Below are positions 25,650 to 50,287 of a stretch of DNA of 64,000 nt, one piece after another. Position numbers and translations under genes: made by a program. The stretch lies in assembly GCA_963749525.1 (NCBI GenBank), contig CAVVNC010000029.1, forward strand, positions 140-64,139. The letters are read 5' to 3'. Positions within the stretch are counted from its first letter, which is position 1; every line of letters begins with the position of its first letter. The notes beneath the pieces were generated by a model. It was not told the DNA's origin and did not search any database. It was given only the letters and a program-made list of their open reading frames with translations. This stretch comes from an uncultured delta proteobacterium (GTDB lineage: Bacteria; Desulfobacterota; Syntrophorhabdia; Syntrophorhabdales; WCHB1-27).

Positions 25650-27340
25650 TGGGGTTAGGATGTTGACGGGGAGTCATGTATTCTGAAATGGGAGGTCGCA
25701 TACGCGCCTCAATGGAAGAAAACGATGATCCCCCCGTCTACCGTGATCATACCTTACGCAGCCTTTTTTATCATCCTCCTTTTCGGCGGGCTGTACACTC
25801 CCGCGTAATCCCTGTCATCCCTCATAATCGCGTGGATGATGCACAAGAGTTTCCTTGATACGGCGACGAGCGCCCTCATCCGCACCATGCCTCTGCCGGT
25901 AAGCCTCTCGTAGTAGTCGTGCATGATACCGTTGTTCCTGACCATAAGCACAGCGGCATAGTAGAGGATCTTTCGCATAAGGCTCCGTCCCCTTTTGGAT
26001 ATCCTCCGCTGTCCTTTTCTCTTTCCCGAGCTCACTTCATAGAGATCGAGGCCGGCAAGCTTCATGATTTCCGACTGGGTCTTGAACTTTGAGAAATCCC
26101 CCACCTCACCAATCAAACCGGCAACAGAGACGACGCCCAACCCTTTTATTGAGAGAAGTCTCATACTGCATGGTATGCGTTCCAGCGTCAGCGCCATCTC
26201 CGCTTCAATCTCGGCGATGAAGCGGTCGATGGCATCGAGTTGAGCAATGATGTGCCTTATGTCCAGGGCGACTCCCGGCACTCCTTCTTTTATACCTACT
26301 GTTCCCCGTGCAAGATTAATCAAGAGTTCCGCATCCTTTATGCCGAGCTTACCCATGCTCCGCCTGCGCATCTCTTCGCCAAACTGTCCCTTATCGAGGG
26401 TCCTTATCGTATCCGGCGTCGTATACTTGTTCAAAATCAATCGAACAGTTTTGCCCCTCATTTTCTTGATGACCTGCTTGAACTCGGGGAAAATGATGAA
26501 GACGAGTTGCTGCATTTGATTAAGCAACGCTGTTCGCTCACACACGTGTCGCTCCCTCGCGTTGTTGAGCCTTCGGAGATAGGCGGCCTCACCTTCTGGA
26601 ATGACTATCGTTAACGCACGGCCAAGCCGTATGACGTCGGCGATCACCCGGGGATCCTTGTCGTCCGTCTTGCCCGGAGAATTGTCGTTCACCTCTTTCA
26701 GCCTCTTCGTATGCATCGGGTTCACCTGGACGATCTTTACTGGCTTATCCGTGAGGTAATGAACGAGAGGCTCGGCGTAGGGGCCGGTCGATTCGTAGCC
26801 GACGATCACCTCGTCACAGTGAAACCTGGTCTTGCTCGCCGCAATGAGGCTCCAGAACTTATCGAATCCTTCCCGCGTGTTGCCGAACTTGAAGACCTTT
26901 ATATCCCTGCCATCTATAGTAGTGCAATACCCTGTATTCATGGTCATACCGATGTCGACCGTCGCAATCAGCGTGCCTTCCTTCATCGTCCTTATTCTCT
27001 TCGCCCTCAGTCCTCTCATCGTAGGTCTCCTCCACTGGATTATCAGGAATAAATGAGCTGCAATGAAGGAGGATATCCTTACTCGTTCGGATGACTCAAC
27101 CATCAACTGCAATATAGCAAGCTGAAATTCTCATCTGAAGGTTGCATCTCGCAATACTCGCTTTCCCGCGGCAATCGTGGTATAATAGATGTGGTCCGCT
27201 GGTGACTATCACCAACCAACCTACGTCCAATCAATTCTGCGTATTTCTGAAAAGCCGCACCGAGGCTCGGGGTTGTCCGCTGGTAAACCCCCTAACAAAG
27301 GACCGAGTGCCGTTGTGGGCTTGCGAACGGCCACCTCGCA
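25650..27340 (-). mobile_element. IS110-family element (boundaries not determined)
   Basis: It contains the DEDD transposase gene plus about 0.3 kb of non-coding sequence 5' of it and about 0.1-0.3 kb 3' of it. IS110 elements lack clear terminal IRs, so the ends cannot be set from one copy. Confidence 0.45.
25754..27019 (-). CDS. IS110-family (DEDD) transposase/recombinase
   Basis: Start ATG 27019 lies 7 nt after GGAGGAG. IATVDIGMTMNTG, VGYESTGPY and DDKDPRVIAD form the DEDD RuvC-like N-domain. LLSIKGLGVVSVAGLIGEVGDFSKF...ISKRGRSLMRK is the Transposase_20 C-domain. Confidence 0.85.
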   Translation of the reverse strand: MRGLRAKRIRTMKEGTLIATVDIGMTMNTGYCTTIDGRDIKVFKFGNTREGFDKFWSLIAASKTRFHCDEVIVGYESTGPYAEPLVHYLTDKPVKIVQVNPMHTKRLKEVNDNSPGKTDDKDPRVIADVIRLGRALTIVIPEGEAAYLRRLNNARERHVCERTALLNQMQQLVFIIFPEFKQVIKKMRGKTVRLILNKYTTPDTIRTLDKGQFGEEMRRRSMGKLGIKDAELLINLARGTVGIKEGVPGVALDIRHIIAQLDAIDRFIAEIEAEMALTLERIPCSMRLLSIKGLGVVSVAGLIGEVGDFSKFKTQSEIMKLAGLDLYEVSSGKRKGQRRISKRGRSLMRKILYYAAVLMVRNNGIMHDYYERLTGRGMVRMRALVAVSRKLLCIIHAIMRDDRDYAGVYSPPKRRMIKKAA

Positions 27341-27394
27341 TAGTGGTCGTGGATAACGATGCCACACAATGGAACCGGAGAAGGAGTCTCAGAT

Positions 27395-27691
27395 ATGGAA
27401 AACAGCACGGGTGCAAAAAGTTTCAACGGCCAATTTGTCCAGAGTAGGAGATTCATACGTGTGAAAGAAAAGCCCTTCCGCTCGAAGAACTACCTCGACT
27501 TCTTAGCTCACTATGATGCGGAGTTAGTGCAGATCGATGGGCTCACAACCGTCGCTCGGTGCAAAACCGGCATTGAATTGCCCTTGGAGCAGAAGGGCAA
27601 ACGACTAATGGTGACGCTACTGCTTGATGAATTCAGGACCATCGCTGGGGCCAACGAAGCGATAGGGAACTACAAAGCCTCACACTCTTGA
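27395..27691 (+). CDS. hypothetical protein (98 aa)
   Basis: ATG 27395 lies 9 nt after GGAGAAGGAG. GC is lower than the surroundings. I recognise no family. Confidence 0.35.
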   Translation: MENSTGAKSFNGQFVQSRRFIRVKEKPFRSKNYLDFLAHYDAELVQIDGLTTVARCKTGIELPLEQKGKRLMVTLLLDEFRTIAGANEAIGNYKASHS

Positions 27692-28015
27692 GTCTTTCTT
27701 CAAACCGGAGAAACGGGGGAGAATAGGCGCGCGTTACACAAACGAGATGTTGGTCGGCCCTTGCCGCCGCACTTCCTCCCTTGGAGGGCCTTTGGGCCGT
27801 TTCTTGCTGCGACGCTCCTTTCACCGGCTTCGATCCGGAGCGTCATCTATCAGCCCCGTTACGGGAAGGGATAATCAACTGCCGTTGAGCCACCGTAGTG
27901 GCATATTATCCGGGCGCGCAAACGAAATCGCTGGACAACCACACATCTCTTCAGTTTTTCGAGGGAAAGCGATTCGTGACCCGGGACATGATACAGGCCA
28001 GCCTTGTGCCTAAAA

Positions 28016-28044
28016 CATAAAGGCCCCGAGAAGGGGCCTTTATG
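28016..28044 (-). terminator. Rho-independent terminator downstream of the csp gene
   Basis: A 12-bp perfect stem (cataaaggcccc / ggggcctttatg) with loop gagaa. On the minus strand it is followed by TTTTA (28011-28015). It lies 18 nt after the csp stop. Confidence 0.6.
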
Positions 28045-28061
28045 TGTATTCAGATGATAAC

Positions 28062-28262
28062 TTAGGCTGTTACGACGTTTGTGGCTCTTGGGCCTTTTGG
28101 CGTCGTTTCGACGTCAAATGTGACCGCCTGACCTTCAGACAAAGACTTAAAGCCGTTGCCGCTGATCGATGTATGATGGACGAAAACATCGTCGCCGTCT
28201 TCCCGGGCGATAAACCCAAAGCCTTTGGACTCGTTAAACCATTTTACGGTTCCTTTTGTCAT
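28062..28262 (-). CDS. cold-shock protein (CspA family)
   Basis: [33 protein letters not shown] carries the RNP1/RNP2 motifs. RBS AAAGGAGG. The track ORF is extended upstream artificially. Confidence 0.9.
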
Positions 28263-28375
28263 GCTTGAATACCTCCTTTCATAGATTGAAAGGTTACGAA
28301 ACGCAATAAAAAAAGCCACAAAGCTCAAGAGTCTTTGCGGCCTTCAGTACGGCAAAAACGTAAACTTTATGGTGT

Positions 28376-28404
28376 ATTATCTCATAACAGCCGGGGAAAG
28401 TCAA
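28376..28404 (-). promoter_or_regulatory. candidate sigma70 promoter of csp (TTGACT-17-GATAAT) giving a 5' UTR of about 105 nt
   Basis: On the minus strand: cTTGACTttccccggctgttatgaGATAATac. Long 5' UTRs are typical of cspA-type genes. Confidence 0.5.
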
Positions 28405-28482
28405 GCGGTCTAGCCGACTACCGGGGGCACACCAAAGTGGTGTCTGTCGTTCGGCCTTTCAGGACTTTGCACCCCACGGTCC

Positions 28483-28663
28483 GGAGGGCATCTTCCATGT
28501 AGAGAAGTATCAGCAATTTCATCAGATATGCCCATCATCATGTGTACTGGCTTTAGCCATGTGGTGAATGCAGATGGGGCCACGGCCGTACGCGTCAGGG
28601 CCTTATGAAACCTTTGACGAAGCGGGACATTGCAAGGACGATCAGACGAGTGCTCGACGAGTA
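28483..28663 (+). pseudogene. remnant of a response-regulator receiver domain (3' fragment, internally frameshifted)
   Basis: The translation ...SSDMPIIMCTGFSHVVNADGATAVRV, then (+1 frame) GLMKPLTKRDIARTIRRVLDE*, resembles beta4-alpha4-beta5-alpha5 of a receiver domain. No N-terminal part or start codon is present. Confidence 0.35.
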
Positions 28664-29041
28664 AAGTCGGTTGCACCTTTCCTCTGGCAATCGATAGAAT
28701 GGCCGGGCTCTCTTCATTCAAGCTTCGTTAGGTGTTCTCGTTTACCGACATGCTGATCTGATCGTTCCCTAATCATCGACCACTCGAACAATCTGTTCTT
28801 CCATCATTACGCATCACAATAGATGCCTCTATTAGGTCGTAGCCCGCGCGGGCGCGTGGGTTGAAAGAGGCATGATGGACTACTATACTTTTTCCAGAAG
28901 CACGCGTCATTACGCGGAATGTTTGGCGCGCTGCGCGCGCCTCGTTCAATGATCGAGAAAACATATTCGAACGTCAATGCCGGTGCCAGGACAAACACAG
29001 TGTTGTCAATCTCGACACTATTTCTTCAGGGGGGGAGTCAC

Positions 29042-29362
29042 ATGCCAAAGTATCTATTGGAAGTATCCTATACCTTAGAAGGTACGAAAGGACTTATCAA
29101 GGAGGGCGGCTCCAGCCGGGAGAAGAAAGTCGGCGAGACCGTCAAGAAACTGCATGGAAAGCTGGAGGCTTTCTACTATGCATTCGGAACATCCGATGTG
29201 TTTCTCATCGTCGATTTGCCGGATGCGGTAACTGCGGCAGCCCTTAGCCTGGCAGTCAACCAGAGTGGGGCAGTACACTTGAAGACGCATGTACTAATGA
29301 GCCCGGAAGAGATCGATCAGGCAGCGAAGAAGTCCGTGAACTACCGGGCGCCCGGAAAATAG
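29042..29362 (+). CDS. GYD-domain protein
   Basis: ATG 29042 follows GGGGGGAG. MPKYLLEVSYTLEGTKGLIKEGG...LEAFYYAFGTSDVFLIVDLPD fits the GYD family pattern (about 106 aa). Confidence 0.65.
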   Translation: MPKYLLEVSYTLEGTKGLIKEGGSSREKKVGETVKKLHGKLEAFYYAFGTSDVFLIVDLPDAVTAAALSLAVNQSGAVHLKTHVLMSPEEIDQAAKKSVNYRAPGK

Positions 29363-29670
29363 CGCGAAATAGCCGCTTGCCCGCCGTCCTACAGGTCCGC
29401 GGAGCCATCTGGACACAGTCGTTAGCTGCGGGGCCCGCCAGTGTGGACCGGCCGCCTGCGACCAGCATTCTCACTTTCAACCGGCTACACACTCTGGTTC
29501 GTCTGGAGAAACTGTTTCTATACGACAGCGATAACGCCCGGTCCGCTCTCGTCCTTCGTGAAATTATCAATGCATAGCAACGCCAACGCGTCCATGGGCA
29601 CAAGCGGCAATGCTTAGCCCGGTGGCGTGCCGATTCCGGGCACCTCCCGTCTTTAAGGCCGATTCTCTCT

Positions 29671-32600
29671 TCATTTCGGGGAACTTGAAATGCGCAGATA
29701 GGGTTCCAGTATTTTGTTCTTGTCTGCCTGCGTTCCGTCGTAGGCTATGGAGACGATGGGAATGGATAAATCTCTTTCCACCTTTTTATAGATTGCTTCA
29801 CTGATCAGCCCGGGGCAGCAGAAAAGAGGGTATACATGGACGATGAATTTCAAATCGGGGTAATTCTCATGCAGGTAGTAGACCTTGAGAAGATTTTCTG
29901 ATGTCTCCCCCCCGTGCCTGATGGATAAGCCATGGTGCTGCAGGTACGTCAAAGGATCACGATTGAGGGTGGACCCTTCGTCTTTTAGAAGGGGGCGGGC
30001 AATCCTGGTCAGCTTTCGGCCGAGTAGGCTGAGCGTACCGTAAAGGGCTTTGTCCCGAAGCAAACCCAAATAGCTGCCGTCAAGCCACTGGCTCTTGAAG
30101 TATGTCGTGATCAGAAGGCCCATCGTGTCGATAAAGGGTATGGTGACGGCTTCGGCGCCGGCCCGCTCCAGTCCCCGGATAAGGTCTTGATTGAAGATCT
30201 CGTTGTCGCGCACATATACGTCTCCCACGATCCCCACCTGGGGCAACCGGACGTCGGTCTTCTCGATGGCCTCAAGATCTTTTACAATCTCCTGAAAAAC
30301 CTCTTCCCTGGAGGTTCCTTTTCTGAAGGCCGCAAACAGGCTTCCCTCCGCTTTTTGGACCAGCCGGTCCGTTGCTCCGGCAGTCTTTTCCCGCGGCCTG
30401 ACCTGGCGCGTCATCTTCTGCAGCAGTCCTGAAAGCAGCCAGGCTCGGTAAAGGTCAACCAGGAGCTCCAAAGGCAAATCTGTGGGGAGATAGGGACTGA
30501 CCCTTACTTCCACCTGTTCCAGGCCATGCCCCATCTTTGTCAGGGTTTGCTTTAACATAACCGGATACTGGGGGAGGTTGCATGAAAGCCGGCTGTCCGC
30601 GTTGCAAAAGATGGCGACCTGCTCCGGACGGAGAGACAGGGTCTGTATCGTGCTGAGGATCCCCTGAGTGAGGATGCTGATCGGCAGACACTGTCCGTCA
30701 TTCAGTTGGATGCTGCGCGATATGGTCTCCGGGGTTTGCTCAATGAGCTCAGCCTTGATACCGGAGCGATTAAGTATTGCCTGCATCAGGCGTGAGTTGA
30801 GGTGATCGTAGTCTGACAGCAGGTAGGTTTTGTCGGCAAAGGACCTTTTGAGATCTATCCTCGGGCGGATTTTCTGCGTGGCCGCGCCCCGAAAATTGCG
30901 GAAGGTCTCGATGGCCGCTTCCAGGCGGGTATCATAGCCTTCGCCTGCCTCATGCTCATCCAGTTGCAGGATCAGGTAGGGTTTGCGGTAGTAATCCATG
31001 ATGTCTTTGAAATAGGAGAGGACGAAAGAATCGGGTGAGCATTTGAACGCGGTCAGGTAGATGGGGAACAGGCCTTTCGTTTTAGCCACGATTTCCGCAG
31101 TTTTTATGATCCTATTGCCATAGTGCCAGTGGTTGAGCCGGACAAAATCTCGCGCCGCATCGATCTCACGCTCATCAACAGGGATCATATCCATATAGAA
31201 CGATTGAACGCCTTTTTCGGCCAGGCGGTCAGGAATTCCCTTGTTCAGAGATTGATTCAGAATCAGGTACGGCCGTCCCATCAGGGCAACAGCGATATCA
31301 TTGGTCGCGCCGATCTGGTCCCGAAACAGTTCCTGTAAGTCCTTTTTGCGTTCCTGAAACCAGTCCCAGGCCAAGGAAAATGCTCTTTCAACCCGCTCAA
31401 ATGATACCTGTTCCTTCATCGCCTCAGGAAACTCCAGATAGATCAGCCGGATCATCTCGTCGAGGTTGCCGTTCACGGCCAGGACGGGGGCGATTACTTT
31501 TCCTGCAAGCGGAAGGGAGGGTATGTTGTGAACGACCGGGATCGCGTAGTGGGAATAGTAGCAGTAGCTTTTGGCTTCTTTCCCAGAGGCGTGTTCGAAG
31601 AGCTGGGGACAAAAGATAAAATCGACCTGCGGCGTCAAATTCCTGATATGGCCGTGGAATTCCACTAAGGGCGTGCAGTATTCTGCGCCGGTTATCTCCT
31701 TTCCCCGCGTCATGTGTTTGGGGTCGGCAGAGGTTACGACCGGCGTGAACCCCAGCCGCTTGAAAAACAGCTCCCACAGCGGTAGGTATTCGACCATGGT
31801 CAGGGTCGCCGGCAATCCGATCTTCAGGGTAGAATCCGCCCCCGGTTGGTGGCGGGGCGCAATTCCGGAGGAGAATAGCTCCCTTCGCAGCTCAAGCAGA
31901 TTGAAATGGATGTGATTCCGCAAGCGGGCCAGTGAAAAACCGGGACGCCTCGCTACCGAGAGAATTCCTCCATCCTTAAATTCCCGGAACGGGTTGCCCT
32001 CGCCCTCAAAGCTTGGCGCGCCGGCTGCGGCGGAAACATCAAACACCCTGCGATGGCTGCGCAACAGATCAAACCCAGAAGCGACTTTCTTCCGGTAACC
32101 CGAATCGTGCTCATCCCGGCCGCACAGGTACCCCCATCCCAGGGTCTCTCCGTCAAGGTCGATGCTTTTGATTTTGCAGTGATTCTTGCAGTACTCGCAG
32201 ACGTATTCGTCCACCACGACCTGTTCGGCGTGGAGGTCTTTTCTGAAACGGGACTCTCGGGCAAGGTCGGCATCGGCCATTTTGAGGCAGACGCCGAATG
32301 CGCCGGTGAGATGACAGAATTTTGAGACGGTGATGGGTTTCTGCAACTTCTGCTCAAATGCCTTCACCAGGGCGTAGTTCTTTGCAGTGGCCCCTTGGAA
32401 GGTAATCCGAGTGCCGATCTTGTTGACGTGGGCCACTTTGGAGAGATAGTTGTCCCTGACCGAATGGAGGGCTGCGGCAAGCAACTCCTCGCGGCTGTAC
32501 TGCAGGCTAAGGAGGTGATTCAAATCCCTCTCCATAAACACGGTGCACCGGTCACTGATCAGGGGGGCGGGAGCCCCTATCGCCAGGGCCGCATAGTCAT

Positions 32601-34008
32601 GCAGAGATACCCCGAGCCTCTTGGCCTGCTCTTCGATAAAGCTTCCCGTGCCTGCAGCGCACGCGTAATTCATGACCGAAAAAGTTACGCTGCCCTCCTT
32701 GAGCACGGTAAATTTTGCATCCTGCCCCCCGATTTCGATGATCGTGTCCGTCTCCGGGCCCAGATGATATGCCGCCCGGGCATGGGCAGTGATTTCATCG
32801 ACCGCATAGTCGGCCCGGACGACCTTTTGGATGAACTTGCGACCGGACCCGGTCGTTCCGGCGGCAAGAATCCTGAAGTGTACGGAAAAGCGTTGCTCCA
32901 GCCCGGCGATGGCCCTGGTCAGTTTCTGAACCGCTGAAATCGGCTGACCGCCGGTTCGGGCATAGAGTCCCACCAGGACCGCCTTCTCGCGATTCATGAG
33001 GGTTGCCTTGGTGCTGGTAGAGCCAATGTCGATTCCAAGATAGCACTCGATTTCCTCACCCAGGCTCAGAGGCTCATACACGTCGATTTCCACGTCATCG
33101 GTCACCGATGATTCCCAGGTGTCAAAATCGGGGACCTCCGATACCACGCTCGACAGGGGCGGATATCCGTAGGACCTGATGGCTGCCGTGGTTCTCTCGA
33201 GCAGCGCATGAACAGGGATCACTGCCGGTACTTCTCCCTCGTTCCGCTGTTTCAAAGCGATCAAGGCAGCGCCGATTGCCCCCATGTACTCGCCGTCGGT
33301 GAGTGCCTGCAGCGGGCGGCCCACTGCTTCCTGCAGGTACTGAAGAACCTTCCGGTTCTTACTGACACCACCAGCCACAACGACAGGATCTAATAATTCG
33401 ACGCCGTGAAACAGGGTATCGTAAATATTCTGGGCAACTCCGCGGGCCAGTCCGGCAGCGATTGCCGGCAGGCCATAGCCCTGCTGCTGCATATGGACCA
33501 GGTCCGTCCGGGCAAATACCGCGCAGCGGGTGGCTATCCGAGGTGGGTCTCCCTGATAGCCCTCGCCGATGCTGCTCAGCTCCTCGCTGCCGGAAAGCCC
33601 GAGGCGGGATGCCTGCTGATCCAGAAAAGAGCCCGTACCCGCCGCGCAGGCAGAGTTGGTTATGTATTTGTGGTAGCGGCCCTGCCGGTCGAAAAGGATC
33701 AGACCGAAGGTTTCTCCGCCGATGGTGATGATGGCTCCCGGGTTGGGGACGAAGTGCTTGACTCCGGCGATAAGGGCTACCTGTTCATTGACCTCGACTC
33801 CGGCCCGGAAGAATTCTCGCCCTTTCTCCGTGACGACCCCGAAAACACTCGGCCGTTGCGCGGGCAGTTTGCCGAGCATCGTCTGGAGTGTCGCATAGAT
33901 ATTGCCCCTATGGAAAGAGTAATCCCGGTAGGTAGGCTGCCCTGTGCTATCGAGCAGGACTATCGCAATGGAGACCGTGCCAATGTCAATACCCGCGACG
34001 TGGCCCAT
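29671..34008 (-). CDS. giant fusion protein: two BcrAD/BadFG/HgdC-type (ASKHA) activase ATPase domains + Cys motif + DUF2229/dehydratase-like C-terminal half
   Basis: 1,445-1,447 aa intact; the second ATG (34008) has better SD spacing. There are two activase modules (GIDIGTVS...NSACAAGTGSFLDQQ...RCAVFARTD and GIDIGSTSTKA...NYACAAGTGSFIEEQ...DRCTVFMERD), each with the two [4Fe-4S]-bridging Cys positions. These are followed by CEYCKNHC...C and about 800 aa of uncharacterised domains. Confidence 0.85.
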   Translation of the reverse strand: MGHVAGIDIGTVSIAIVLLDSTGQPTYRDYSFHRGNIYATLQTMLGKLPAQRPSVFGVVTEKGREFFRAGVEVNEQVALIAGVKHFVPNPGAIITIGGETFGLILFDRQGRYHKYITNSACAAGTGSFLDQQASRLGLSGSEELSSIGEGYQGDPPRIATRCAVFARTDLVHMQQQGYGLPAIAAGLARGVAQNIYDTLFHGVELLDPVVVAGGVSKNRKVLQYLQEAVGRPLQALTDGEYMGAIGAALIALKQRNEGEVPAVIPVHALLERTTAAIRSYGYPPLSSVVSEVPDFDTWESSVTDDVEIDVYEPLSLGEEIECYLGIDIGSTSTKATLMNREKAVLVGLYARTGGQPISAVQKLTRAIAGLEQRFSVHFRILAAGTTGSGRKFIQKVVRADYAVDEITAHARAAYHLGPETDTIIEIGGQDAKFTVLKEGSVTFSVMNYACAAGTGSFIEEQAKRLGVSLHDYAALAIGAPAPLISDRCTVFMERDLNHLLSLQYSREELLAAALHSVRDNYLSKVAHVNKIGTRITFQGATAKNYALVKAFEQKLQKPITVSKFCHLTGAFGVCLKMADADLARESRFRKDLHAEQVVVDEYVCEYCKNHCKIKSIDLDGETLGWGYLCGRDEHDSGYRKKVASGFDLLRSHRRVFDVSAAAGAPSFEGEGNPFREFKDGGILSVARRPGFSLARLRNHIHFNLLELRRELFSSGIAPRHQPGADSTLKIGLPATLTMVEYLPLWELFFKRLGFTPVVTSADPKHMTRGKEITGAEYCTPLVEFHGHIRNLTPQVDFIFCPQLFEHASGKEAKSYCYYSHYAIPVVHNIPSLPLAGKVIAPVLAVNGNLDEMIRLIYLEFPEAMKEQVSFERVERAFSLAWDWFQERKKDLQELFRDQIGATNDIAVALMGRPYLILNQSLNKGIPDRLAEKGVQSFYMDMIPVDEREIDAARDFVRLNHWHYGNRIIKTAEIVAKTKGLFPIYLTAFKCSPDSFVLSYFKDIMDYYRKPYLILQLDEHEAGEGYDTRLEAAIETFRNFRGAATQKIRPRIDLKRSFADKTYLLSDYDHLNSRLMQAILNRSGIKAELIEQTPETISRSIQLNDGQCLPISILTQGILSTIQTLSLRPEQVAIFCNADSRLSCNLPQYPVMLKQTLTKMGHGLEQVEVRVSPYLPTDLPLELLVDLYRAWLLSGLLQKMTRQVRPREKTAGATDRLVQKAEGSLFAAFRKGTSREEVFQEIVKDLEAIEKTDVRLPQVGIVGDVYVRDNEIFNQDLIRGLERAGAEAVTIPFIDTMGLLITTYFKSQWLDGSYLGLLRDKALYGTLSLLGRKLTRIARPLLKDEGSTLNRDPLTYLQHHGLSIRHGGETSENLLKVYYLHENYPDLKFIVHVYPLFCCPGLISEAIYKKVERDLSIPIVSIAYDGTQADKNKILEPYLRISSSPK

Positions 34009-34213
34009 GCGCATGCTCCTTACACCGCATTTGCCTGCTATTAGCCCGTATTCTCAGCGCTGAAAGGAGCAATGGGAGGCAAACAAGTCTGATGTTGCGT
34101 CTAATATAGACCAAAAAGGAGGTTTATACAAACGCGGTTATTATACCCGGGGGCGAGGCGTTACCCCCGTGCAGGAGCAAGTAGGCCCCTCAACAAAGAT
34201 GATGCTCCACGGT

Positions 34214-35356
34214 CTATCCTGGTTGCGGGGAGGGTTTTCCCATTTCCCGGAGCCAGCGGTAGTGTTCGGCCAGTCCCGTCCAGAAAGAACGGTGCTGGGC
34301 GTATTTTACGCCGAATTCGCCGCACGTCTCCTCGACGATCTTCGCCATTCCGGGGTAGTTTATGTGACAGATAGAGGGAAAGAGATGATGCTCGAGGTGG
34401 AAGTTCAAGCCTCCGAAGAACCACGTCCTAACCCGGCTGTGCCGGTCGTAATCGAGCGTCACCTGGGCCTGGTGCACAGCCCATGGGTTCTCCATCATAT
34501 GAGAGGCTTTGTCGGGCAAGGGGAAATCGGAAAGGCCCGTGCAGTGCGGCAACTGGAACACGACGGAAAGCGGTATGCCCATAATGAGGACAACTACCGC
34601 GTAGTAAAAGAGGATAATCGAGACGGGGTGGCGGGATAGGGGCAGCACGAGTGCCAGGGTAAAAAAGAGCGCCTTCCCTCCGATGAAAACAACAAGATTC
34701 CCACCTTTGGGCCGGGGCGTCGGATGCGTGTGGATCCTGCCGGATACGGCGTGGTGAAAATCGCTGTACAGATGGAATTTCACTACGAGGAAAGCGTAGA
34801 GCGCCCACACATATAGATGCTGCCAGCGATGGAACCATCGCCTTTTCTGGTGCGGCGCAAACCGGGTAAGCTTGCCCAAATCGATATCGGGATCGTAGCC
34901 CACTATGTTGACGTAGTTGTGATGATACATGGCGTGCTTCCAGTGCCACACATAAGAACTGGCGCCGATCAGGTCCAGCGTCATGGCCGCCAGTCTGTTG
35001 ACCCACCGGCGCTCCGAAAAGGCCCGATGCCCTCCGTCATGCATGATGTTGAACCCTATCGCCGTCATGGAGAAGGCAAGCACAACGGCGGTTATCAGGC
35101 CCTGCCACAGGTTCTGCGCCCAGAACACCAGTGCCAGATATGAGAGAAAAAAGCAGGATAGGATGATTCCAGATTTCAGATAAATTCGCCGACCACCGCG
35201 TTGTGGCCGGCCCACCGTCCGAAAGTACTCGTTCACGCGGCGACGCAACTCGGTATGAAACTCCGCGCTGCTGTCGAACTTCAGGCCCTGGACGGCCGGC
35301 GGATAGCGGCTTGGATTTCTATCGGCTCTCTCGAACCCTTCCTGCTTTTCCGGCAT
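34214..35356 (-). CDS. membrane fatty-acid desaturase family protein (di-iron, three His boxes)
   Basis: His boxes HDGGH, HWKHAMYHHNYVN and HLEHHLFP with TM segments. It is co-directional with the giant gene, 200 bp upstream of it. Confidence 0.85.
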   Translation of the reverse strand: MPEKQEGFERADRNPSRYPPAVQGLKFDSSAEFHTELRRRVNEYFRTVGRPQRGGRRIYLKSGIILSCFFLSYLALVFWAQNLWQGLITAVVLAFSMTAIGFNIMHDGGHRAFSERRWVNRLAAMTLDLIGASSYVWHWKHAMYHHNYVNIVGYDPDIDLGKLTRFAPHQKRRWFHRWQHLYVWALYAFLVVKFHLYSDFHHAVSGRIHTHPTPRPKGGNLVVFIGGKALFFTLALVLPLSRHPVSIILFYYAVVVLIMGIPLSVVFQLPHCTGLSDFPLPDKASHMMENPWAVHQAQVTLDYDRHSRVRTWFFGGLNFHLEHHLFPSICHINYPGMAKIVEETCGEFGVKYAQHRSFWTGLAEHYRWLREMGKPSPQPG

Positions 35357-35756
35357 AGCTCGCTATCAGTATAACATAAGCAAACGGACGAGGTTAGGCA
35401 AAGACCATTCGCTTGCCCTCGATAAGCCGATTGTTGTCTTGGCTTTTTTCAGCACGTAATTCTCGTATGTCATTGGGGCGCCACCTCACTGTTTCGTAGA
35501 GTATGAAGACGGGCATCTTCCCGTAAGCACAAGTCTCCGTTCCGACTCCCGAAAGGCATCTTTCGGCCGGCAATCGTTATCCTGTGATCAGTAGGCCCCC
35601 TGCGAAGCGCGGGAACAAGGGAACACAAACTCTGACATCACCCCGAGAATCGGCTGCGCTGGTCTTCGGGATCCGGGGTTTCCGGAGGGGCACTACTCAG
35701 TTTTTAGATACGCGCCGCAAATACTCGATCCTGGGCTTTTAGGGTAATCTGGCCGG

Positions 35757-36923
35757 TCAAAACAGGGAAGATCGTTTTCCGAGGGGTGTTGGTTTCCCCA
35801 GGGTCATTTTGAGATATTCAAGCATAAGTTCCTGCAACATCTGCTCTTTTGATGTGTCGACAAAGGATTGTTTTTCGTCTGCTTGGGCCTTGTTTATCTT
35901 ACCGGCTTGGATAGCGGAAGATCGTAGCGCCTGCTGCAAAGCAGCATATTCGCCGGCCAGTCCTGTTGCCGGCATGTGTGAAAGCGATTGGTGGACCAAG
36001 GCCAACTGACTCGGAGCAGGAAGACAAGGCGACTCGAGAACCATTCTGAAATTCTGAGCATAACGTTTCATGCCTCCCATCATGTGACCCGGTTTCACAA
36101 AATTGATACCTGACCAGCCGGCTCGAAGCCATTGAAAAGTTCCAGTCCTGACCATGGCAGCCGAGCCCTCTGATTCGACATAGACGACAACCGAAGAATA
36201 GTCGTAGATGTAAGTCTTTGCCCATCCGAGCCCGGTTTTCATGGTCCCTGGTTCACTTGAATAGAAGTAGGTCCAGTCATTGTCATTGCCCAGAATAACC
36301 CCCTTTTTCCCGACTTGTGATGCATCGATCAGTGCCGATATGGAAACTAACACCTCTTGGCCCTTGTGGTTAAAGAGGATAAGGGTCCTTTTCAGGTCAT
36401 ATTCATGATAAACGCCGGTAGAGAGATCAGGAGTGCTGGAGTCATGCTGCAGACCGCGAATGATGACCGGAGCCCCGTCAGGAGGAACCACGCCCCACCT
36501 GCTCGGCATTTCATGCATGTCACTTTGAGGATTGGACCAGATCGAGTAGCGTAGGGAAGATGGTCTCGTGATGTTTGACGGAATGAGAGAACTGTAGCAG
36601 TACTCCATGAATCGGGGAAAGGCGACCCTTGTGTCGAATTCATAATAGACCCCGTAACACCGATTACATTCTGGGAGGGAGCATTCCCTGCCATTCTTCG
36701 AGATCATGACGTAGTCCGCCAGGGTAGCAATCGCCTGTAGATCAGGATCGGTTTTGGAATCGCCACAATACTGGACGAGACGCACTGCAGCGTCGCTCAC
36801 AAGGCGGGGGATGTCCGTGAGAGAAGCAGCGGGAGCGGGCGGGTATGCCGCGAGGAGCGAGAACCCGAGCAGAAAGCAGCGCCATATCTGCGAAAACTGC
36901 CAAAAATGAGTCTTTTGATTCAC
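35757..36923 (-). CDS. hypothetical secreted protein (388 aa)
   Basis: Long ORF in a lower-GC patch with a GTG start. The N-terminal hydrophobic segment IWRCFLLGFSLLAAYPPAPAAS looks like a signal peptide. I recognise no family. Confidence 0.55.
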   Translation of the reverse strand: MNQKTHFWQFSQIWRCFLLGFSLLAAYPPAPAASLTDIPRLVSDAAVRLVQYCGDSKTDPDLQAIATLADYVMISKNGRECSLPECNRCYGVYYEFDTRVAFPRFMEYCYSSLIPSNITRPSSLRYSIWSNPQSDMHEMPSRWGVVPPDGAPVIIRGLQHDSSTPDLSTGVYHEYDLKRTLILFNHKGQEVLVSISALIDASQVGKKGVILGNDNDWTYFYSSEPGTMKTGLGWAKTYIYDYSSVVVYVESEGSAAMVRTGTFQWLRAGWSGINFVKPGHMMGGMKRYAQNFRMVLESPCLPAPSQLALVHQSLSHMPATGLAGEYAALQQALRSSAIQAGKINKAQADEKQSFVDTSKEQMLQELMLEYLKMTLGKPTPLGKRSSLF

Positions 36924-37056
36924 GTTGAGACATTCACCGTTAATGGTCTATTTTGCTAAAAGCATAAGAGCTGAAAGCTCTTCGTGTCAACGGAATATTG
37001 CGTCGTATCACCGCCTGGTCCCGGGCATGAATTTTTCCCGGTACGTTTCTTTTTGA

Positions 37057-37638
37057 ATGGCGTGTGGGGCAGTCGATGCCTTTCGGGCAAGACGAGGTAA
37101 CGGTTTTAGCCATCGGGTCGATGCCCGGATAGATGCTGCTGTCAGGGAAGTCTTCCGCATGCCGAGAGAACGGCAATCTCTGCCCTCACCCGCTGTCGGC
37201 GCGAGCTATCTGCAGGGTATCAAAAAACAGGTCGAAGAGTTTTGGATCCCGGAAATCTCAGCATTGCTGGATGAATTCAGCCGGCCGGGCTCAATCAAGG
37301 ATGGTCAGCAGTTCCACAAACTCATTCAGGGGGCTCAAAGAATTGCTGGGGCAGTTGTTGGCAGTCCGGGCAGTTTGTTCCGTTACCAGATGCGAGGGTT
37401 TCCCGTAATTACGGATCAGAAAACCAACCAGACTCTCTACGCACCTCCCTTTCCCGCAATAGAGGTGATCAGCTACCCTCTTGAACTTATTCTTGGAGAG
37501 GTGGTTAGGTCGGCTAAGACTTTGCAGGACAATCTGGTGGACTGGAGCAGGCAGCGTCGCGAGATGAGAAAAGACTACGTCGCTTATTTGACCGCAGTCG
37601 AGCAGACGCGATCAGCAAGGCTTCTTAATTACTTTTAG
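37057..37638 (+). CDS. hypothetical protein (start uncertain)
   Basis: ORF divergent from 35757..36923. An internal Met (MPRERQSL...) is an alternative start. I recognise no family. Confidence 0.3.
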   Translation: MACGAVDAFRARRGNGFSHRVDARIDAAVREVFRMPRERQSLPSPAVGASYLQGIKKQVEEFWIPEISALLDEFSRPGSIKDGQQFHKLIQGAQRIAGAVVGSPGSLFRYQMRGFPVITDQKTNQTLYAPPFPAIEVISYPLELILGEVVRSAKTLQDNLVDWSRQRREMRKDYVAYLTAVEQTRSARLLNYF

Positions 37639-37879
37639 TACTTGTAATTGCTTTCACGGTCCTATTGACTTTGTCATCTGGCAGAATTGTCCATCTGGCT
37701 CGTCTGCTCCTCGCTCTGATTCGAGGCTAAGGAGGGGTAAACAAAGAAGATTACGGAGCCTATGCGATGGACCATCGCAGTCTATTTCAAAGCGGGGCCG
37801 ATTCTCCCTCACGATATCGCTTCTTAATGGCAATCGTCGTAGATCCCGACTGCCGACGCACCTGCACTTGTAGGTGAAG

Positions 37880-38521
37880 CTCTCGGGTCTTTTTCCGATG
37901 CCCACACAGCCCCGCGATGAATAACGAATGCCCTCTCAAGCTTTGCGTGGGGGATGGGGGCGTGAGGGCCTAAAACGACGAGCGATGCAGTTCTGCTGGC
38001 TCGGTGAGTCACGAAGGAGGTAAAGCCGGGACCGGCACTGGTAGGGAAAAACCCTCTCGTACCTTTGTTGAGCCTCTGAACAGCTCGAATTTTCATTTGC
38101 CGAACAAGCCCGGGCGACACCACAGGCTTGAGCTGACACCGAAAGGCGCCGCCTAAAAAGAGGACGCAGATCTAGGTCGGCGGATGTTGAATCCGTCCGG
38201 ACAATTGCCCTTGACCGGGGCATCCGGGCTCCCTATACTCCTTATCATGAAGGGCAGGCCTTATCGTGGCGATGCCGTGAGCCAGCCTGATCAGAGGATA
38301 GTCCCGATGGCCGGAGCAAGGCGCGAATTCCAGGATTTTGCAAAGCCGGCCGGTCCGGTGTGCAATCTGGAGTGCCGCTATTGCTACTATCTGAAGAAGA
38401 AAGACCTCTACGAGAAGGGCGACCCGCTCCGTATGTCCGACGACATCCTGGAGGAGTACATCGTCCAGCACATCGATGCCTCGCGGGGTGAGGTGATCAG
38501 GTTTTCCTGGCACGGCGGGGA
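37880..38521 (+). repeat. direct duplicate of the anSME upstream region + first ~72 codons (copy 1; partner 43321-44022)
   Basis: 38352-38521 is identical base for base to 43853-44022 (170 bp). About 38100-38351 is similar with scattered mismatches. 37880-38100 is only loosely similar, with indels. Confidence 0.75.
38211..38239 (+). promoter_or_regulatory. candidate sigma70 promoter (TTGACC-17-TATACT) of the truncated anSME copy
   Basis: cccTTGACCggggcatccgggctcccTATACTcc. The same hexamers and spacing are conserved at 43714-43742. Confidence 0.5.
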
Positions 38522-38711
38522 AGGGATCGCCCTGAAAATCCGATGCGTCTCACATAAGGAATCTGACAATTCAATGGGCGTCTTGCCTTACTATGGCGGG
38601 AGCAATTTGATAGCCTCAGAAGCGGTGCTTACTTTTCGGGGATCAGATGCACAGGGTGCCCCCAACTCCCACCATGGGAGGGAAGTCACTGTCGCGGCAG
38701 GGCTATCATGA
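38307..38711 (+). pseudogene. truncated duplicate of the anaerobic sulfatase-maturating enzyme gene (first ~72 codons, then unrelated sequence)
   Basis: MAGARREFQDFAKPAGPVCNLECRYCYYLKKKDLYEKGDPLRMSDDILEEYIVQHIDASRGEVIRFSWHGGE is then followed by non-homologous EGIALKIRCVSHKE... up to a stop at 38711. Confidence 0.7.
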
Positions 38712-40075: not shown

Positions 40076-40777
40076 GGAGAATCCACCAGCATGTAGCCTG
40101 CCCCCCATATCGTCTTTATTCGTTTCGGCGCACTGGGATCGGCCTCTACTTTGGACCTGAGCTTGCTGATGTGAACGTCAATACTTCTGTCGAAGGCGGT
40201 GAAATCACGCCCGCGGGCAAGGGTCATGAGCTGGTCGCGACTCATCACCGTGTTCGGGTTCTTCATGAGCACTTCGAGAATCCTGAACTCCGCGGTGGAC
40301 AGTTCCATTTCCCTGCCCTCTACGACGGCGGTCTGTTTTGCCGTATTCAGCGAGATCCCGGCAGCATTGATAATGTTGTGTCGGGTCTTTTCGCCGCCGC
40401 CTCTGTCAACGTTTGCGGATCTTCTGAGAACCGCCTTCATTCGGGCAAGAAGCTCCCTGGGATTGAACGGCTTCGGCAGATAGTCGTCCGCGCCCAGTTC
40501 GAGCCCTAACGATGCGGTCCGTATCGTCTCCCCTGGCCGTGAGCATGATAATGGGCAACCCATGGTCCTTCCTGATCTCTTTGAGTACTTCCAACCCGTC
40601 TCTTCCCGGCAGCATGATGTCCAGTATGACCAGATCGGGTGAATCTGTCGACAGGACGCCCAGCACGTCGGCGCCGTCCGCCCGGCACGTGGTGTGAAAT
40701 CCGTGATCTTTCAAATACTCTCCAAGAAGCTTGCGCAGTTTCTCGTCGTCATCAATGATTAGAACTCTGTTCCCCAC
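40072..40777 (-). pseudogene. OmpR-family response regulator, one +1 frameshift
   Basis: The receiver (RVLIIDDDEKL...DLVILDIMLPGRDG...PIIMLTARGDDTDRIV) is then shifted by an extra base at about 40507. The rest reads GLELGADDYLPKPFNPRELLARMKAVLRR plus a winged-helix C-terminus (...RIKTIWGAGYML). Confidence 0.8.
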
Positions 40778-40910
40778 GGATGTCACCCCTTTTTGCACTC
40801 TTTTACATCTATCTTACACTTCTTTTCACATCCGCAAAACTGTCTTAGCATTCTGCCGTTATCCTGTTTTTAGCGTGGGCGACGGCCCATAAAGAAATCA
40901 GGAGGGAGCA

Positions 40911-43097: not shown

Positions 43098-43320
43098 CAC
43101 TATCTCGCCATTGAGAGGAGGCCGATAGAGGTAACGCTGATTGCGAACACATATCCTACACGGGGTTGCTGATTTCAATAAGGTTAGTATCCCCCCTGGC
43201 GACTTCGGCAACCCCGGTGACGCTATGCTCCCTTTCTTATCTTGTGACGGTGGGTCAGCATGAATATTTTATTCAGTAATCGTTAACTTTCGGAGCGACC
43301 TCTTTGGAATAGTTGATGGA

Positions 43321-48997: not shown

Positions 48998-49007
48998 AGG
49001 TGGCCAT

Positions 49008-49826: not shown

Positions 49827-49856
49827 CCCGCTCCTTAAGATGCGCTATGCTGAAGT

Positions 49857-50280: not shown

Positions 50281-50287
50281 GGTTTTT

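What the first reader, a model, noticed from the sequence alone, without database searches (positions are those of the whole stretch)
29671..34008. Two giant paralogous 'double activase + DUF2229' fusion proteins of unknown function
The genes at 29671..34008 (-) and 50392..54558 (+) each encode about 1,400 aa. Each has two tandem HgdC/BcrAD-type ASKHA ATPase domains. All four domains keep the CAAGTG and C(T/A)VF cysteines that, in activases of 2-hydroxyacyl-CoA dehydratases and benzoyl-CoA reductases, bridge a [4Fe-4S] cluster between two subunits. These are followed by a conserved C-x2-C-x3-C...C motif and about 800 aa of uncharacterised (DUF2229/dehydratase-like) sequence.

A covalently linked activase pseudo-dimer fused to its presumptive acceptor would be a self-contained ATP-driven low-potential electron-injection machine. 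No substrate is known for this architecture, to my knowledge. Neither gene has an obvious partner operon here: one follows a membrane desaturase, the other stands alone behind a TATAAT promoter.
Basis: partly seen in the sequence, partly recalled or inferred. Interest (0 to 1): 0.65.

Follow-up and report, generated by a model that had tools for sequence, protein, structure and literature searches.

The report
Two PlsA/Ger-type ether-lipid reductase genes
The two giant genes are real, but they belong to a family described since 2021: oxygen-sensitive, ATP-driven enzymes with which anaerobic bacteria turn ester-linked membrane lipids into ether lipids. They are therefore new members of a known kind, and only the more divergent copy lacks an assigned activity.

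Summary
Window 29671..34008 (-) encodes 1445 aa and 50392..54558 (+) encodes 1388 aa. Each protein has two BcrAD_BadFG activase domains, an invariant C-x2-C-x3-C...C motif, and two homologous HAD/BCR/DCCP-like catalytic modules (DUF2229 plus an HGD-D-like module).

The claim that no substrate is known for this architecture does not hold. [quoted passage not shown] Heterologous expression of those enzymes in E. coli gives vinyl-ether or alkyl-ether glycerolipids.

I recovered the C. perfringens plsA-plsR locus using a published primer. PlsA plus PlsR align colinearly over the full length of both ORFs (ORF B E=1.5e-134; ORF A E=1e-58). All 16 family-invariant cysteines are shared.

The window matches a Syntrophorhabdales MAG. 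ORF B follows host taxonomy and shares its motifs with validated PlsA. ORF A belongs to a divergent superclade (26-31% identity). That superclade has a degenerate ATP site in the first activase domain, extra conserved cysteines, foreign-looking codon usage and FCB-group nearest relatives. No member I could identify has a demonstrated activity.

Verdict: new members of a known kind, low to moderate interest.

The parts
29671..34008 (-). ORF A: 1445-aa (160.8 kDa) single-chain PlsA/Ger-family protein of the divergent 'A-superclade'. The first in-frame ATG is at 34014; the likely real start is 34008.
33241..34002 (-). ORF A Act1: first BcrAD_BadFG/ASKHA activase domain. It has the cluster cysteines C123 and C164 (1447-aa numbering). 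Its phosphate-2 motif is degenerate (IGGETFG instead of DIGGQDxK).
32275..33045 (-). ORF A Act2: second activase domain, with a canonical EIGGQDAK motif and cluster cysteines C452 and C490.
32122..32199 (-). ORF A Cys4 linker motif C606-x2-C609-x3-C613...C631, a probable metal or Fe-S site.
30892..31824 (-). ORF A Red1: DUF2229 module, equivalent to the C-terminal third of C. perfringens PlsA. Invariant C780, C818, C992.
29674..30891 (-). ORF A Red2: PlsR-equivalent module. Invariant C1109, C1145, C1399, plus the clade-specific C1400.
34214..35356 (-). Membrane fatty-acid desaturase family gene (PF00487, His boxes intact), 199 nt upstream of ORF A on the same strand. The pairing is kept only in the closest relative (L001).
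50392..54558 (+). ORF B: 1388-aa (154.3 kDa) single-chain PlsA/Ger-family protein of the 'B-superclade', which shares its motif versions with validated PlsA. It is about 100% identical to a Syntrophorhabdales MAG protein.
50398..51177 (+). ORF B Act1: activase domain. C130 and C169 align with HgdC Cys127 and Cys166. Motif DIGGEDSK.
51334..52101 (+). ORF B Act2: activase domain. C440, C480; motif EIGGQDSK.
52180..52260 (+). ORF B Cys4 linker motif C597-x2-C600-x3-C604...C623.
52369..53301 (+). ORF B Red1: DUF2229 plus an HGD-D tail. Invariant C710, C752, C923.
53302..54555 (+). ORF B Red2: PlsR-equivalent module, homologous to Red1. Invariant C1039, C1074, C1335.
50005..50280 (-). Divergently transcribed acylphosphatase gene. 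It is conserved next to ORF B orthologs in Syntrophorhabdales and Syntrophales loci.
50310..50317 (.). Palindromic ATTATAAT (-10-like element) in the 111-nt gap between the acylphosphatase gene and ORF B. The consensus scan scores it 11/12 on the minus strand.

Best explanation
Both genes encode single-chain members of the PlsA/PlsR-Ger family. These are oxygen-sensitive, ATP-dependent reductases of the benzoyl-CoA reductase / 2-hydroxyacyl-CoA dehydratase (BCR/HAD) superfamily that convert an acyl ester of membrane glycerophospholipids into an ether.

Proposed mechanism:
1. The two N-terminal ASKHA activase domains pack as an intramolecular pseudo-dimer. Together they hold one [4Fe-4S] cluster through four cysteines. 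(Inferred.)
2. The cluster is reduced by ferredoxin or flavodoxin. ATP hydrolysis then drives the electron to very low potential. (Inferred from established HgdC/BCR knowledge.)
3. The electron passes, possibly via the Cys4 site, into Fe-S cluster(s) held by 3+3 invariant cysteines in the two homologous catalytic modules, Red1 and Red2. (Inferred.)
4. There the sn-1 ester carbonyl is reduced in one-electron steps through a ketyl-type intermediate, protonated and dehydrated to a vinyl ether (PlsA outcome), or reduced further to a saturated alkyl ether (Ger outcome). (This is the mechanism proposed in the literature for the family.)

Shown here: the domain architecture, full-length homology to validated C. 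perfringens PlsA+PlsR, conservation of all candidate ligand cysteines, and the folds of both halves.

ORF B is the lineage's own copy and has the same motif versions as validated PlsA. It is most likely the functional ether-lipid enzyme, and in a Desulfobacterota relative the product is probably alkyl ethers.

ORF A belongs to a divergent subfamily. It probably performs a related lipid ester reduction, but its product and substrate are not assignable.
For: - Architecture: 2x PF01869 + PF09989 (+PF06050) in both ORFs. This equals the published 'BBD(H..)' architecture of the Ger proteins of T. maritima and D. alkenivorans (PMC13159169) and the 'Act1-Act2-Red1-Red2' layout of fused PlsA (PMC12838417).
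- Reference locus: the C. perfringens plsA-plsR locus was retrieved by published primer. The forward and reverse primers lie exactly 4199 bp apart, as in the original cloning.
- Homology to the reference: PlsA (975 aa) aligns with ORF B residues 3-967 (30.5% identity, E=1.5e-134). PlsR (420 aa) aligns with ORF B residues 1007-1340 (E=2e-29). ORF A gives E=1e-58 and 1e-24 for PlsA, and 3e-11 for PlsR.
- Cysteines: all 16 invariant cysteines are present in CpPlsA/PlsR.
- C-terminal half: AF2 model pLDDT 86, pTM 0.85. The top 14 PDB matches are all BzdNO, DCCP, HadBC or MbdON catalytic subunits at probability 1.0.
- Internal duplication: Red1 and Red2 are homologous, with their cysteines aligned.
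- N-terminal half: model pLDDT 88, pTM 0.82. It matches MbdQ/P, HadI, HgdC and DCCP-R at TM 0.82-0.90.
- Cluster ligands: ORF B C130 and C169 align with HgdC Cys127 and Cys166.
- Function in the family: shown by anaerobic heterologous expression.
- Precedent: two deep paralogs (25.9% identity) occur in D. alkenivorans, a member of the Desulfobacterota.
Against: - No activity, lipid or expression data exist for this organism.
- Identity to the validated C. perfringens enzyme is only 24-30%.
- I could not retrieve the validated Ger sequences (T. maritima Tmari_0479, D. alkenivorans SHJ90043) for direct comparison.
- The field itself states that PlsA versus Ger cannot be assigned from sequence (PMC13274423).
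- ORF A's superclade differs at residues flanking the Red2 cluster cysteines and in the Act1 ATP site.
- The second D. alkenivorans paralog, Ger2, produced no ether lipids in E. coli.
- No lipid-biosynthesis operon surrounds either gene.
Confidence: 0.75

Rival explanations
1. ORF B is the ether-lipid enzyme. ORF A, and its whole superclade, has a different job: the sn-2 ester, another lipid class or headgroup, or another low-potential reduction altogether. In this reading its first activase domain is a non-hydrolysing pseudo-ATPase.
For: - ORF A's superclade is only 26-31% identical to the B-superclade and is more distant from validated PlsA+PlsR (291-353 versus 425-531 summed bits).
- It has clade-wide differences. 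The Act1 phosphate-2 motif is (V/I)GGE(T/H/R/K)F, lacking the Asp and Lys of DIGGQDxK. There is an extra Cys in S(K/R)(F/Y)CH(L/V)TGA. Red2 has a CC pair. The residues flanking the Red2 cysteines are QC(L/I)P and ACN(L/I) instead of KEC(Y/F)P and GPCRFGQY.
- D. alkenivorans Ger2, about 26% identical to Ger, made no ethers in E. coli. A Desulfatibacillaceae MAG carries a 1389-aa A-superclade member.
Against: - All 16 candidate ligand cysteines and the whole domain order are retained.
- The inactivity of Ger2 may be an inclusion-body artefact, as the authors themselves say.
- That Ger2 belongs to the A-superclade is inferred only from size, taxonomy and percent identity.
Confidence: 0.2
2. They are soluble acyl-CoA or aryl-CoA dehydratases or reductases with a built-in activator, used in the aromatic or amino-acid fermentation pathways of a Syntrophorhabdales. 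This is what the database names suggest ('acyl-CoA dehydratase activase', 'R-phenyllactate dehydratase activator').
For: - Source names.
- The catalytic half has the fold of BzdNO, HadBC and MbdON.
- The window carries an aromatic-degradation-like gene cluster at 0.9-9.3 kb.
Against: - The names derive only from the activase domains (TIGR00241).
- Sequence identity to CoA-ester enzymes in the fold matches is 10-14%. Against PlsA/PlsR the match is colinear at E=1e-134.
- PF06050 is matched only by a 53-residue tail in ORF B and not at all in ORF A.
- The same architecture occurs across many phyla irrespective of aromatic metabolism.
- Neither gene sits in a catabolic operon.
Confidence: 0.04
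3. They are fused double-cubane-cluster-protein (DCCP)-type reductases acting on small molecules (acetylene-like or other inert substrates), not on lipids.
For: - DCCP and DCCP-R are among the best structural matches for both halves.
- The 3+3 invariant cysteines in Red1 and Red2 could in principle bind an [8Fe-9S] double cubane.
Against: - There is no sequence-level match to DCCP outside the activase domains.
- Homology to PlsA/PlsR is far stronger.
- In DCCP the six cysteines lie in one subunit, whereas here they are split 3+3 over two homologous modules, as in HAD alpha/beta. This point rests on my own knowledge of the published structures.
Confidence: 0.02

Closest known systems
PlsA/PlsR anaerobic plasmalogen synthase (C. 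perfringens CPE1194/1195, Q8XL48/Q8XL47; fused single-gene PlsA in E. faecalis, L. cremoris and B. longum)
   Same: - The domain order is the same: Act1-Act2-Cys4-Red1 (= PlsA) followed by Red2 (= PlsR).
- The alignment is colinear over the full length.
- All 16 invariant cysteines are shared.
- The single-gene fused form is already described in facultative anaerobes.
- ORF B shares the PlsA versions of the Act1 and Red2 motifs.
   Different: - Identity is only 24-30%.
- C. perfringens splits the protein between Red1 and Red2. The split point corresponds to ORF B residue 970 and ORF A residue 1041.
- The product here (vinyl ether or alkyl ether) is unknown.
- ORF A has clade-specific motif changes.
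Ger, glycerol ester reductase ('modified PlsA'; T. maritima Tmari_0479, D. alkenivorans SHJ90043), and its paralog Ger2 (SHK01260)
   Same: - The published Pfam architecture is two PF01869 plus PF09989, followed by short PF06050/PF09989 pieces.
- The size is about 1400-1460 aa.
- It occurs in anaerobes, including Desulfobacterota.
- D. alkenivorans has two paralogs at about 26% identity, mirroring ORF A and ORF B.
   Different: - I made no direct sequence comparison, because the sequences could not be retrieved with the tools.
- Which ORF corresponds to Ger and which to Ger2 is inferred only indirectly.
2-hydroxyacyl-CoA dehydratases (HgdAB/HadBC + HgdC/HadI), class I benzoyl-CoA reductases (BcrABCD, BzdNOPQ, MbdONPQ) and DCCP/DCCP-R
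   Same: - The two component types are the same: an ASKHA activase dimer bridging a [4Fe-4S] cluster, and a pair of homologous Fe-S catalytic subunits.
- Folds match at probability 1.0.
- The activase cysteines align with HgdC Cys127 and Cys166.
   Different: - All four modules are on one polypeptide.
- There is an extra Cys4 motif.
- The catalytic modules are only 10-14% identical to those enzymes.
- The substrate of the characterised relatives is a membrane phospholipid ester, not a CoA thioester.

Membership tests
PlsA/PlsR-Ger family (anaerobic ether-lipid reductases) | Two N-terminal BcrAD_BadFG (PF01869) activation domains | tested here: met
   Two stretches in each ORF: E=1.6e-61 for A and 5.6e-76 for B. 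TIGR00241 matches twice in each. The fold matches activases at TM 0.82-0.90.
PlsA/PlsR-Ger family (anaerobic ether-lipid reductases) | DUF2229 (PF09989) 'reduction' domain following the activation domains | tested here: met
   Full-length PF09989 match (profile positions 1-218 of 218) in both ORFs: A residues 731-944, B residues 660-878.
PlsA/PlsR-Ger family (anaerobic ether-lipid reductases) | A second, PlsR-equivalent reduction/dehydration module at the C-terminus | tested here: met
   CpPlsR aligns with ORF B residues 1007-1340 (E=2e-29) and ORF A residues 1075-1290 (E=3e-11). Red1 and Red2 are homologous by hhalign (E=2e-5). The fold is that of HAD/BCR/DCCP catalytic subunits.
PlsA/PlsR-Ger family (anaerobic ether-lipid reductases) | Colinear full-length sequence homology to an experimentally validated member | tested here: met
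   C. perfringens PlsA against ORF B: 30.5% identity over 989 columns, E=1.5e-134. Against ORF A: E=1e-58 plus 1e-24. The reference locus was verified by both published primers lying 4199 bp apart.
PlsA/PlsR-Ger family (anaerobic ether-lipid reductases) | Conserved cysteine framework (4 activase Cys, Cys4 linker, 3+3 catalytic Cys) | tested here: met
   Sixteen cysteines are invariant in 231 homologs. All are present in CpPlsA (13) and CpPlsR (3).
PlsA/PlsR-Ger family (anaerobic ether-lipid reductases) | Similarity to the validated Ger proteins (published screen: DIAMOND E<=1e-50 and >=30% coverage against T. maritima Ger) | not tested
   Tmari_0479 and SHJ90043 could not be retrieved (searches failed to reach them). 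The only evidence is indirect: the same Pfam architecture, and B-superclade relatives in Thermotogaceae-like, anammox and Desulfobacterales MAGs.
PlsA/PlsR-Ger family (anaerobic ether-lipid reductases) | Anaerobic conversion of the sn-1 (and sn-2) acyl ester to a vinyl or alkyl ether | not testable with these tools
   This needs heterologous expression or lipidomics. The literature also states that PlsA versus Ger cannot be assigned from sequence.
2-hydroxyacyl-CoA dehydratase / class I benzoyl-CoA reductase catalytic subunits (PF06050 HGD-D) | Full-length match to the HGD-D / BcrB-C family profile | tested here: not met
   ORF B matches only profile positions 287-342 of 342 (29.3 bits against a cut-off of 28.4). 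ORF A has no match. No catalytic-subunit hit appears in the PDB sequence searches. The resemblance is at fold level only, with 10-14% identity.
HgdC/HadI/BcrAD-type activases | ASKHA fold with the two cluster-ligand cysteines (HgdC Cys127 and Cys166) and intact ATP motifs | tested here: met
   The cysteines align and the fold matches. The ATP motifs are intact in Act2 of both ORFs and in Act1 of ORF B. Act1 of ORF A has a degenerate phosphate-2 motif.
DCCP (double-cubane cluster proteins) | Six cysteines binding an [8Fe-9S] cluster in the catalytic subunit | tested here: inconclusive
   Six invariant cysteines are present, split 3+3 over Red1 and Red2.

The most novel reading that the evidence does not exclude
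ORF A represents an uncharacterised sister subfamily of PlsA/Ger, possibly the 'Ger2' type. Its first activase domain would have become a non-catalytic partner, and its Red2 active-site surroundings are remodelled. It would carry out a reaction that the validated enzymes do not, such as sn-2 etherification, action on a different lipid class, or cooperation with the adjacent membrane desaturase. In this Syntrophorhabdales lineage it appears to have been acquired laterally from FCB-group bacteria.
Probability: 0.25. Interest if true: 0.5.

Novelty: new member of a known kind. Interest (0 to 1): 0.27.

Why it matters
The PlsA/Ger family is the only known anaerobic route to bacterial ether lipids (plasmalogens and alkyl glycerol ethers). 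It is also invoked as the ether-forming step in brGDGT biosynthesis, and brGDGTs are palaeoclimate proxies.

Placing two deep paralogs in a Syntrophorhabdales genome adds a candidate ether-lipid producer among syntrophic aromatic degraders. It also gives a clean pair for asking what distinguishes the subfamilies.

The practical gain is a correction of annotation. These roughly 1400-aa proteins labelled 'acyl-CoA dehydratase activase' should be read as lipid ester reductases.

The A-superclade signatures found here are concrete, testable markers in a field that currently says sequence cannot separate family functions. They are a degenerate Act1 ATP site, extra cysteines and altered Red2 motifs.

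Tried and rejected
1. Fetching E. faecalis plsA from genome contigs with the published forward primer gave no exact match.
It returned only MAGs of the B-type and no cultured reference organism.
3. I spent the third homolog search on a Thermotogaceae-MAG homolog (L063) hoping to reach T. maritima Ger. The top 120 hits were Spirochaetota and Bacteroidota MAGs with no T. maritima.
4. Jackson et al. 2021 (PMC7812594 / DOI) is not held, so the published PlsA motifs could not be read. The supplement of the Sci Adv Ger paper is not held either.
5. Exact look-ups of both window proteins, with either start for ORF A, found nothing on record.
6. Desaturase-PlsA linkage as a conserved operon is rejected. 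It is present only in the 92% relative (L001). It is absent next to relatives at 75% identity and at 63-64%.
7. YgiQ radical-SAM linkage (seen in C. perfringens) is not found in any other locus or in the window.
8. The 1331-aa antisense ORF over ORF B as a real gene is rejected. It is in register with ORF B's codons. ORF B has only 2 TTA/CTA/TCA codons, in a genome region with GC3 of about 0.82.
9. Matching ORF A to Ger and ORF B to Ger2 by molecular weight alone was considered and dropped. Sizes vary within both superclades.
10. Cluster-bridging geometry of the Act1/Act2 pseudo-dimer could not be measured, because model coordinates are not returned. Only the pTM of 0.82 supports a defined arrangement.

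Full report

Yes. The window contains an ORF at 29671..34014 (-) of 1447 aa and one at 50392..54558 (+) of 1388 aa.

AAGGAG lies 7 nt upstream of that ATG but only 1 nt before the ATG at 34014. The 92%-identical homolog P0001 is 1445 aa. ORF A residue numbers below use the 1447-aa reading; subtract 2 for the likely real protein.

Pfam finds two BcrAD_BadFG domains and a complete DUF2229 domain in each protein, plus a short HGD-D tail in ORF B. NCBIfam finds the acyl-CoA dehydratase activase domain TIGR00241 twice in each. PDB sequence searches hit only activases: MbdQ/P, HadI, HgdC and DCCP-R.

In a residue-level alignment, ORF B C130 (CAAGTG) and C169 (CTVF) fall on Cys127 and Cys166 of HgdC (1HUX). 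From my own knowledge of the 1HUX structure, these are the two cluster ligands each subunit contributes.

In a MAFFT alignment of the two ORFs with 229 full-length homologs, sixteen cysteines are invariant:
- Four activase cysteines: A 123/164/452/490; B 130/169/440/480.
- The C-x2-C-x3-C...C linker motif: A 606/609/613/631; B 597/600/604/623.
- Three in the first catalytic module: A 780/818/992; B 710/752/923.
- Three in the second catalytic module: A 1109/1145/1399; B 1039/1074/1335.

The two proteins are deep paralogs: 34% identity over the N-terminal half and 28% over the C-terminal half.

**2. What the parts are**

*C-terminal half.* An AlphaFold2 model of ORF B residues 585-1388 is confident (pLDDT 85.9, pTM 0.85). 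Its 14 best PDB matches, all at probability 1.0, are catalytic subunits of the BCR/HAD/DCCP superfamily: BzdNO, DCCP, HadBC and MbdON. Sequence identity to them is only 10-14%.

Profile-profile comparison shows that the two catalytic modules (Red1 and Red2) are homologous to each other, with their first two cysteines aligned (E=2.3e-5). This is an alpha/beta-like internal duplication.

*N-terminal half.* A model of ORF A residues 1-640 is also confident (pLDDT 88.2, pTM 0.82). Each half matches activase structures at TM 0.82-0.90 and rmsd 2.4-3.0 A.

Each polypeptide is therefore a complete HAD/BCR-type system (activator dimer plus alpha/beta catalytic pair) fused into one chain, with an extra four-cysteine site between the halves.

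**3. It is a known family**

The literature describes exactly this architecture.
- Sahonero-Canavesi et al. (PMC13159169) describe the glycerol ester reductase Ger of T. maritima and D. alkenivorans. It has two PF01869 domains, one PF09989 domain and short PF06050/PF09989 pieces. Anaerobic expression in E. coli produces 1-O-alkyl glycerols.
- Ger is a 'modified PlsA', homologous to the C. perfringens plasmalogen synthase PlsA/PlsR (PMC8788747).
- Irimajiri et al. (PMC12838417) show that in E. faecalis, L. cremoris and B. longum a single gene of about 4.2-4.9 kb encodes Act1-Act2-Red1-Red2 and makes plasmalogens in E. coli.
- Hopmans et al. (PMC11150832) show that D. alkenivorans Ger alone also gives diethers.

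**4. Direct test against a validated member**

I took the genomic part of the published C. perfringens forward primer and scanned the metagenome contigs. This gave eleven contigs that are 97.7-100% identical to one another over this region.

In L090 the forward and reverse primer sites lie 4199 bp apart, exactly the size of the fragment originally cloned. The locus encodes PlsA (975 aa: Act1-Act2-Cys4-Red1) and PlsR (420 aa: Red2).

BLASTP results:

| Query | ORF B | ORF A |
|---|---|---|
| PlsA | residues 3-967, 30.5% identity, E=1.5e-134 | E=1e-58 and 1e-24 |
| PlsR | residues 1007-1340, E=2e-29 | E=3e-11 |

All 16 invariant cysteines are present in PlsA/PlsR. The PlsA|PlsR split corresponds to ORF B residue 970 and ORF A residue 1041.

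**5. How common it is, and where the window comes from**

An exhaustive HMMER search with ORF A's catalytic half alone found 2321 50%-identity clusters at E<=1e-3 and 335 at E<=1e-30. Most full-length hits are 1360-1560 aa.

ORF B is about 100% identical to a protein from a Syntrophorhabdales MAG (GCA_049510855.1) and 68% identical to the Syntrophorhabdus aromaticivorans ortholog. The window is therefore from a Syntrophorhabdales (Desulfobacterota).

**6. The two paralogs belong to different superclades**

Pairwise BLAST and an NJ tree show the following.
- *B-superclade.* It contains ORF B; Syntrophorhabdus, Syntrophus, Desulfobacterales, Nitrospirota, anammox Scalindua and Bacteroidales relatives; and a protein labelled Thermotogaceae. 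Mutual identity is 34-52%.
- *A-superclade.* It contains ORF A, its Chitinivibrionales, Schekmanbacteria, Kiritimatiellae, KSB1 and Calditrichota relatives, and more distant members. The distant members include a 1389-aa protein from a Desulfatibacillaceae MAG (36-47% mutual identity).
- Identity between the superclades is 26-31%. That matches the 25.9% reported between D. alkenivorans Ger and Ger2.
- C. perfringens PlsA+PlsR is closer to the B-superclade (425-531 summed bits) than to the A-superclade (291-353).

The A-superclade has consistent signatures.
- The phosphate-2 motif of Act1 is (V/I)GGE(T/H/R/K)F instead of (D/E)xGG(E/Q)DxK. This suggests the first activase domain no longer hydrolyses ATP (inference).
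- There is an extra Cys in S(K/R)(F/Y)CH(L/V)TGA.
- There is a CC pair in Red2.
- The residues flanking the Red2 cysteines differ: QC(L/I)P and ACN(L/I) instead of KEC(Y/F)P and GPCRFGQY.

C. perfringens PlsA/PlsR has the B-like versions of these motifs.

ORF A also looks less native than ORF B.
- Its GC3 is 0.68 and 1.6% of its codons are TTA/CTA/TCA. ORF B and the neighbouring housekeeping genes have GC3 of 0.80-0.84 and at most 0.25% of those codons.
- It lies in a lower-GC stretch near an IS110 transposase.
- Apart from one 92% relative, its closest homologs are from FCB-group and PVC-group MAGs.

I read this as probable lateral acquisition (inference).

**7. Neighbourhoods**

*ORF A.* It is preceded, after a 199-nt gap, by a PF00487 membrane fatty-acid desaturase with intact His boxes. 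The pairing is kept in the 92% relative (L001). It is absent next to relatives at 75% identity and at 63-64%. It is therefore lineage-specific and not a conserved operon. It still fits a lipid-modifying theme.

*ORF B.* It stands alone. A small acylphosphatase gene is divergently transcribed upstream, and this gene is conserved in Syntrophorhabdales and Syntrophales loci. The genes beyond it (hemA, ccsA-like) and those downstream of ORF B (CNNM/CorC, dsbA-like, accA, dnaE) are housekeeping genes.

The consensus scan scores it 11/12 for the minus-strand acylphosphatase gene. On the plus strand the spacing to TTGAAG is only 15 nt.

**8. Most likely mechanism**

Shown here: the architecture, the folds, the conserved candidate ligands and homology to validated enzymes.

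Inferred from established HgdC/HAD/BCR biochemistry and the mechanism proposed for PlsA:
1. The Act1/Act2 pseudo-dimer holds a bridging [4Fe-4S] cluster.
2. After reduction by ferredoxin or flavodoxin, ATP hydrolysis drives an electron into the Fe-S cluster(s) of Red1/Red2, possibly through the Cys4 site.
3. The ester carbonyl of a membrane glycerophospholipid is reduced in one-electron steps, protonated and dehydrated to a vinyl ether, or reduced further to an alkyl ether.

Which product each ORF makes cannot be assigned. The field itself states that PlsA and Ger cannot currently be distinguished from sequence (PMC13274423).

My best guess is that ORF B is the working ether-lipid enzyme. ORF A is a related but functionally unassigned paralog. 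D. alkenivorans Ger2 is a possible counterpart, and it produced no ethers in E. coli, perhaps because of inclusion bodies.

**9. Verdict**

The claim of an unknown function for this architecture has been overtaken by work published between 2021 and 2026.

These are new members of a known kind. Residual novelty lies in the A-superclade signatures and in the coexistence of both types in a Syntrophorhabdales genome.

Interest is about 0.27.

Noticed in passing
window 50746..54741 (-): A 1331-aa antisense ORF lies exactly in register with ORF B's codons. It exists because ORF B has only 2 TTA/CTA/TCA codons in 1388 (GC3 0.82). It is a codon-bias shadow ORF, not a gene.
   Followed up: yes
window 25754..27112 (-) and 26000..44000: An IS110-family transposase (PF01548 + PF02371) lies about 2.5 kb from ORF A's 3' end. 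It sits at the edge of a stretch with lower GC (0.51-0.56 versus 0.57-0.61). Genes in that stretch have lower GC3, which suggests an acquired island containing ORF A and the desaturase.
   Followed up: partly
window 34214..35356 (-): A membrane fatty-acid desaturase family protein (PF00487; His boxes HDGGH, HxxHH, HLEHH) occurs in what should be an obligate anaerobe. It has no close NCBIfam equivalog (best: Delta10 DesB, 33 bits against a cut-off of 500) and no PDB relative. Its substrate, and whether it needs O2, are unknown.
   Followed up: partly
window 908..9338 (+): A gene cluster that looks like anaerobic polyphenol or aromatic degradation. It comprises an SDR, a pyrogallol-hydroxytransferase-like molybdopterin subunit (AhtL-like), a 4Fe-4S dicluster subunit, an ADP-forming acyl-CoA synthetase and a beta-keto acid cleavage enzyme.
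   Followed up: no
L002 and L003 versus window 49000..50400: Proteins nearly identical to ORF B, together with the adjacent acylphosphatase gene, sit in three different upstream contexts: hemA/ccsA in the window, peptidases in L002, and an ABC transporter plus AMP-ligase in L003. This could reflect strain rearrangement, mobility of the two-gene unit, or assembly chimeras.
   Followed up: no
L090 4414..6402 (+); L086 3983..5944 (+); L076 4273..5616 (-): In C. perfringens a YgiQ-family radical SAM gene lies directly upstream of plsA. In a Chitinispirillaceae locus a B12-binding radical SAM gene lies 57 nt upstream of the ORF A-type gene, and a methyltransferase gene follows it. A 32%-identical B12-rSAM gene sits next to a Thermoguttaceae homolog. 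This is a sporadic radical-SAM association that might relate to lipid tail modification.
   Followed up: partly
L082 6001..10362: The Desulfobacteraceae MAG homolog (1454 codons) carries a single in-frame stop at codon 1010. This may be a sequencing error, a pseudogene, or a natural PlsA|PlsR-like split.
   Followed up: no
window 38184..38711 (+) and 38686..40563 (-): A small ORF with a weak radical-SAM match lies next to a histidine kinase / response regulator pair, inside the low-GC stretch upstream of ORF A. I did not examine them.
   Followed up: no
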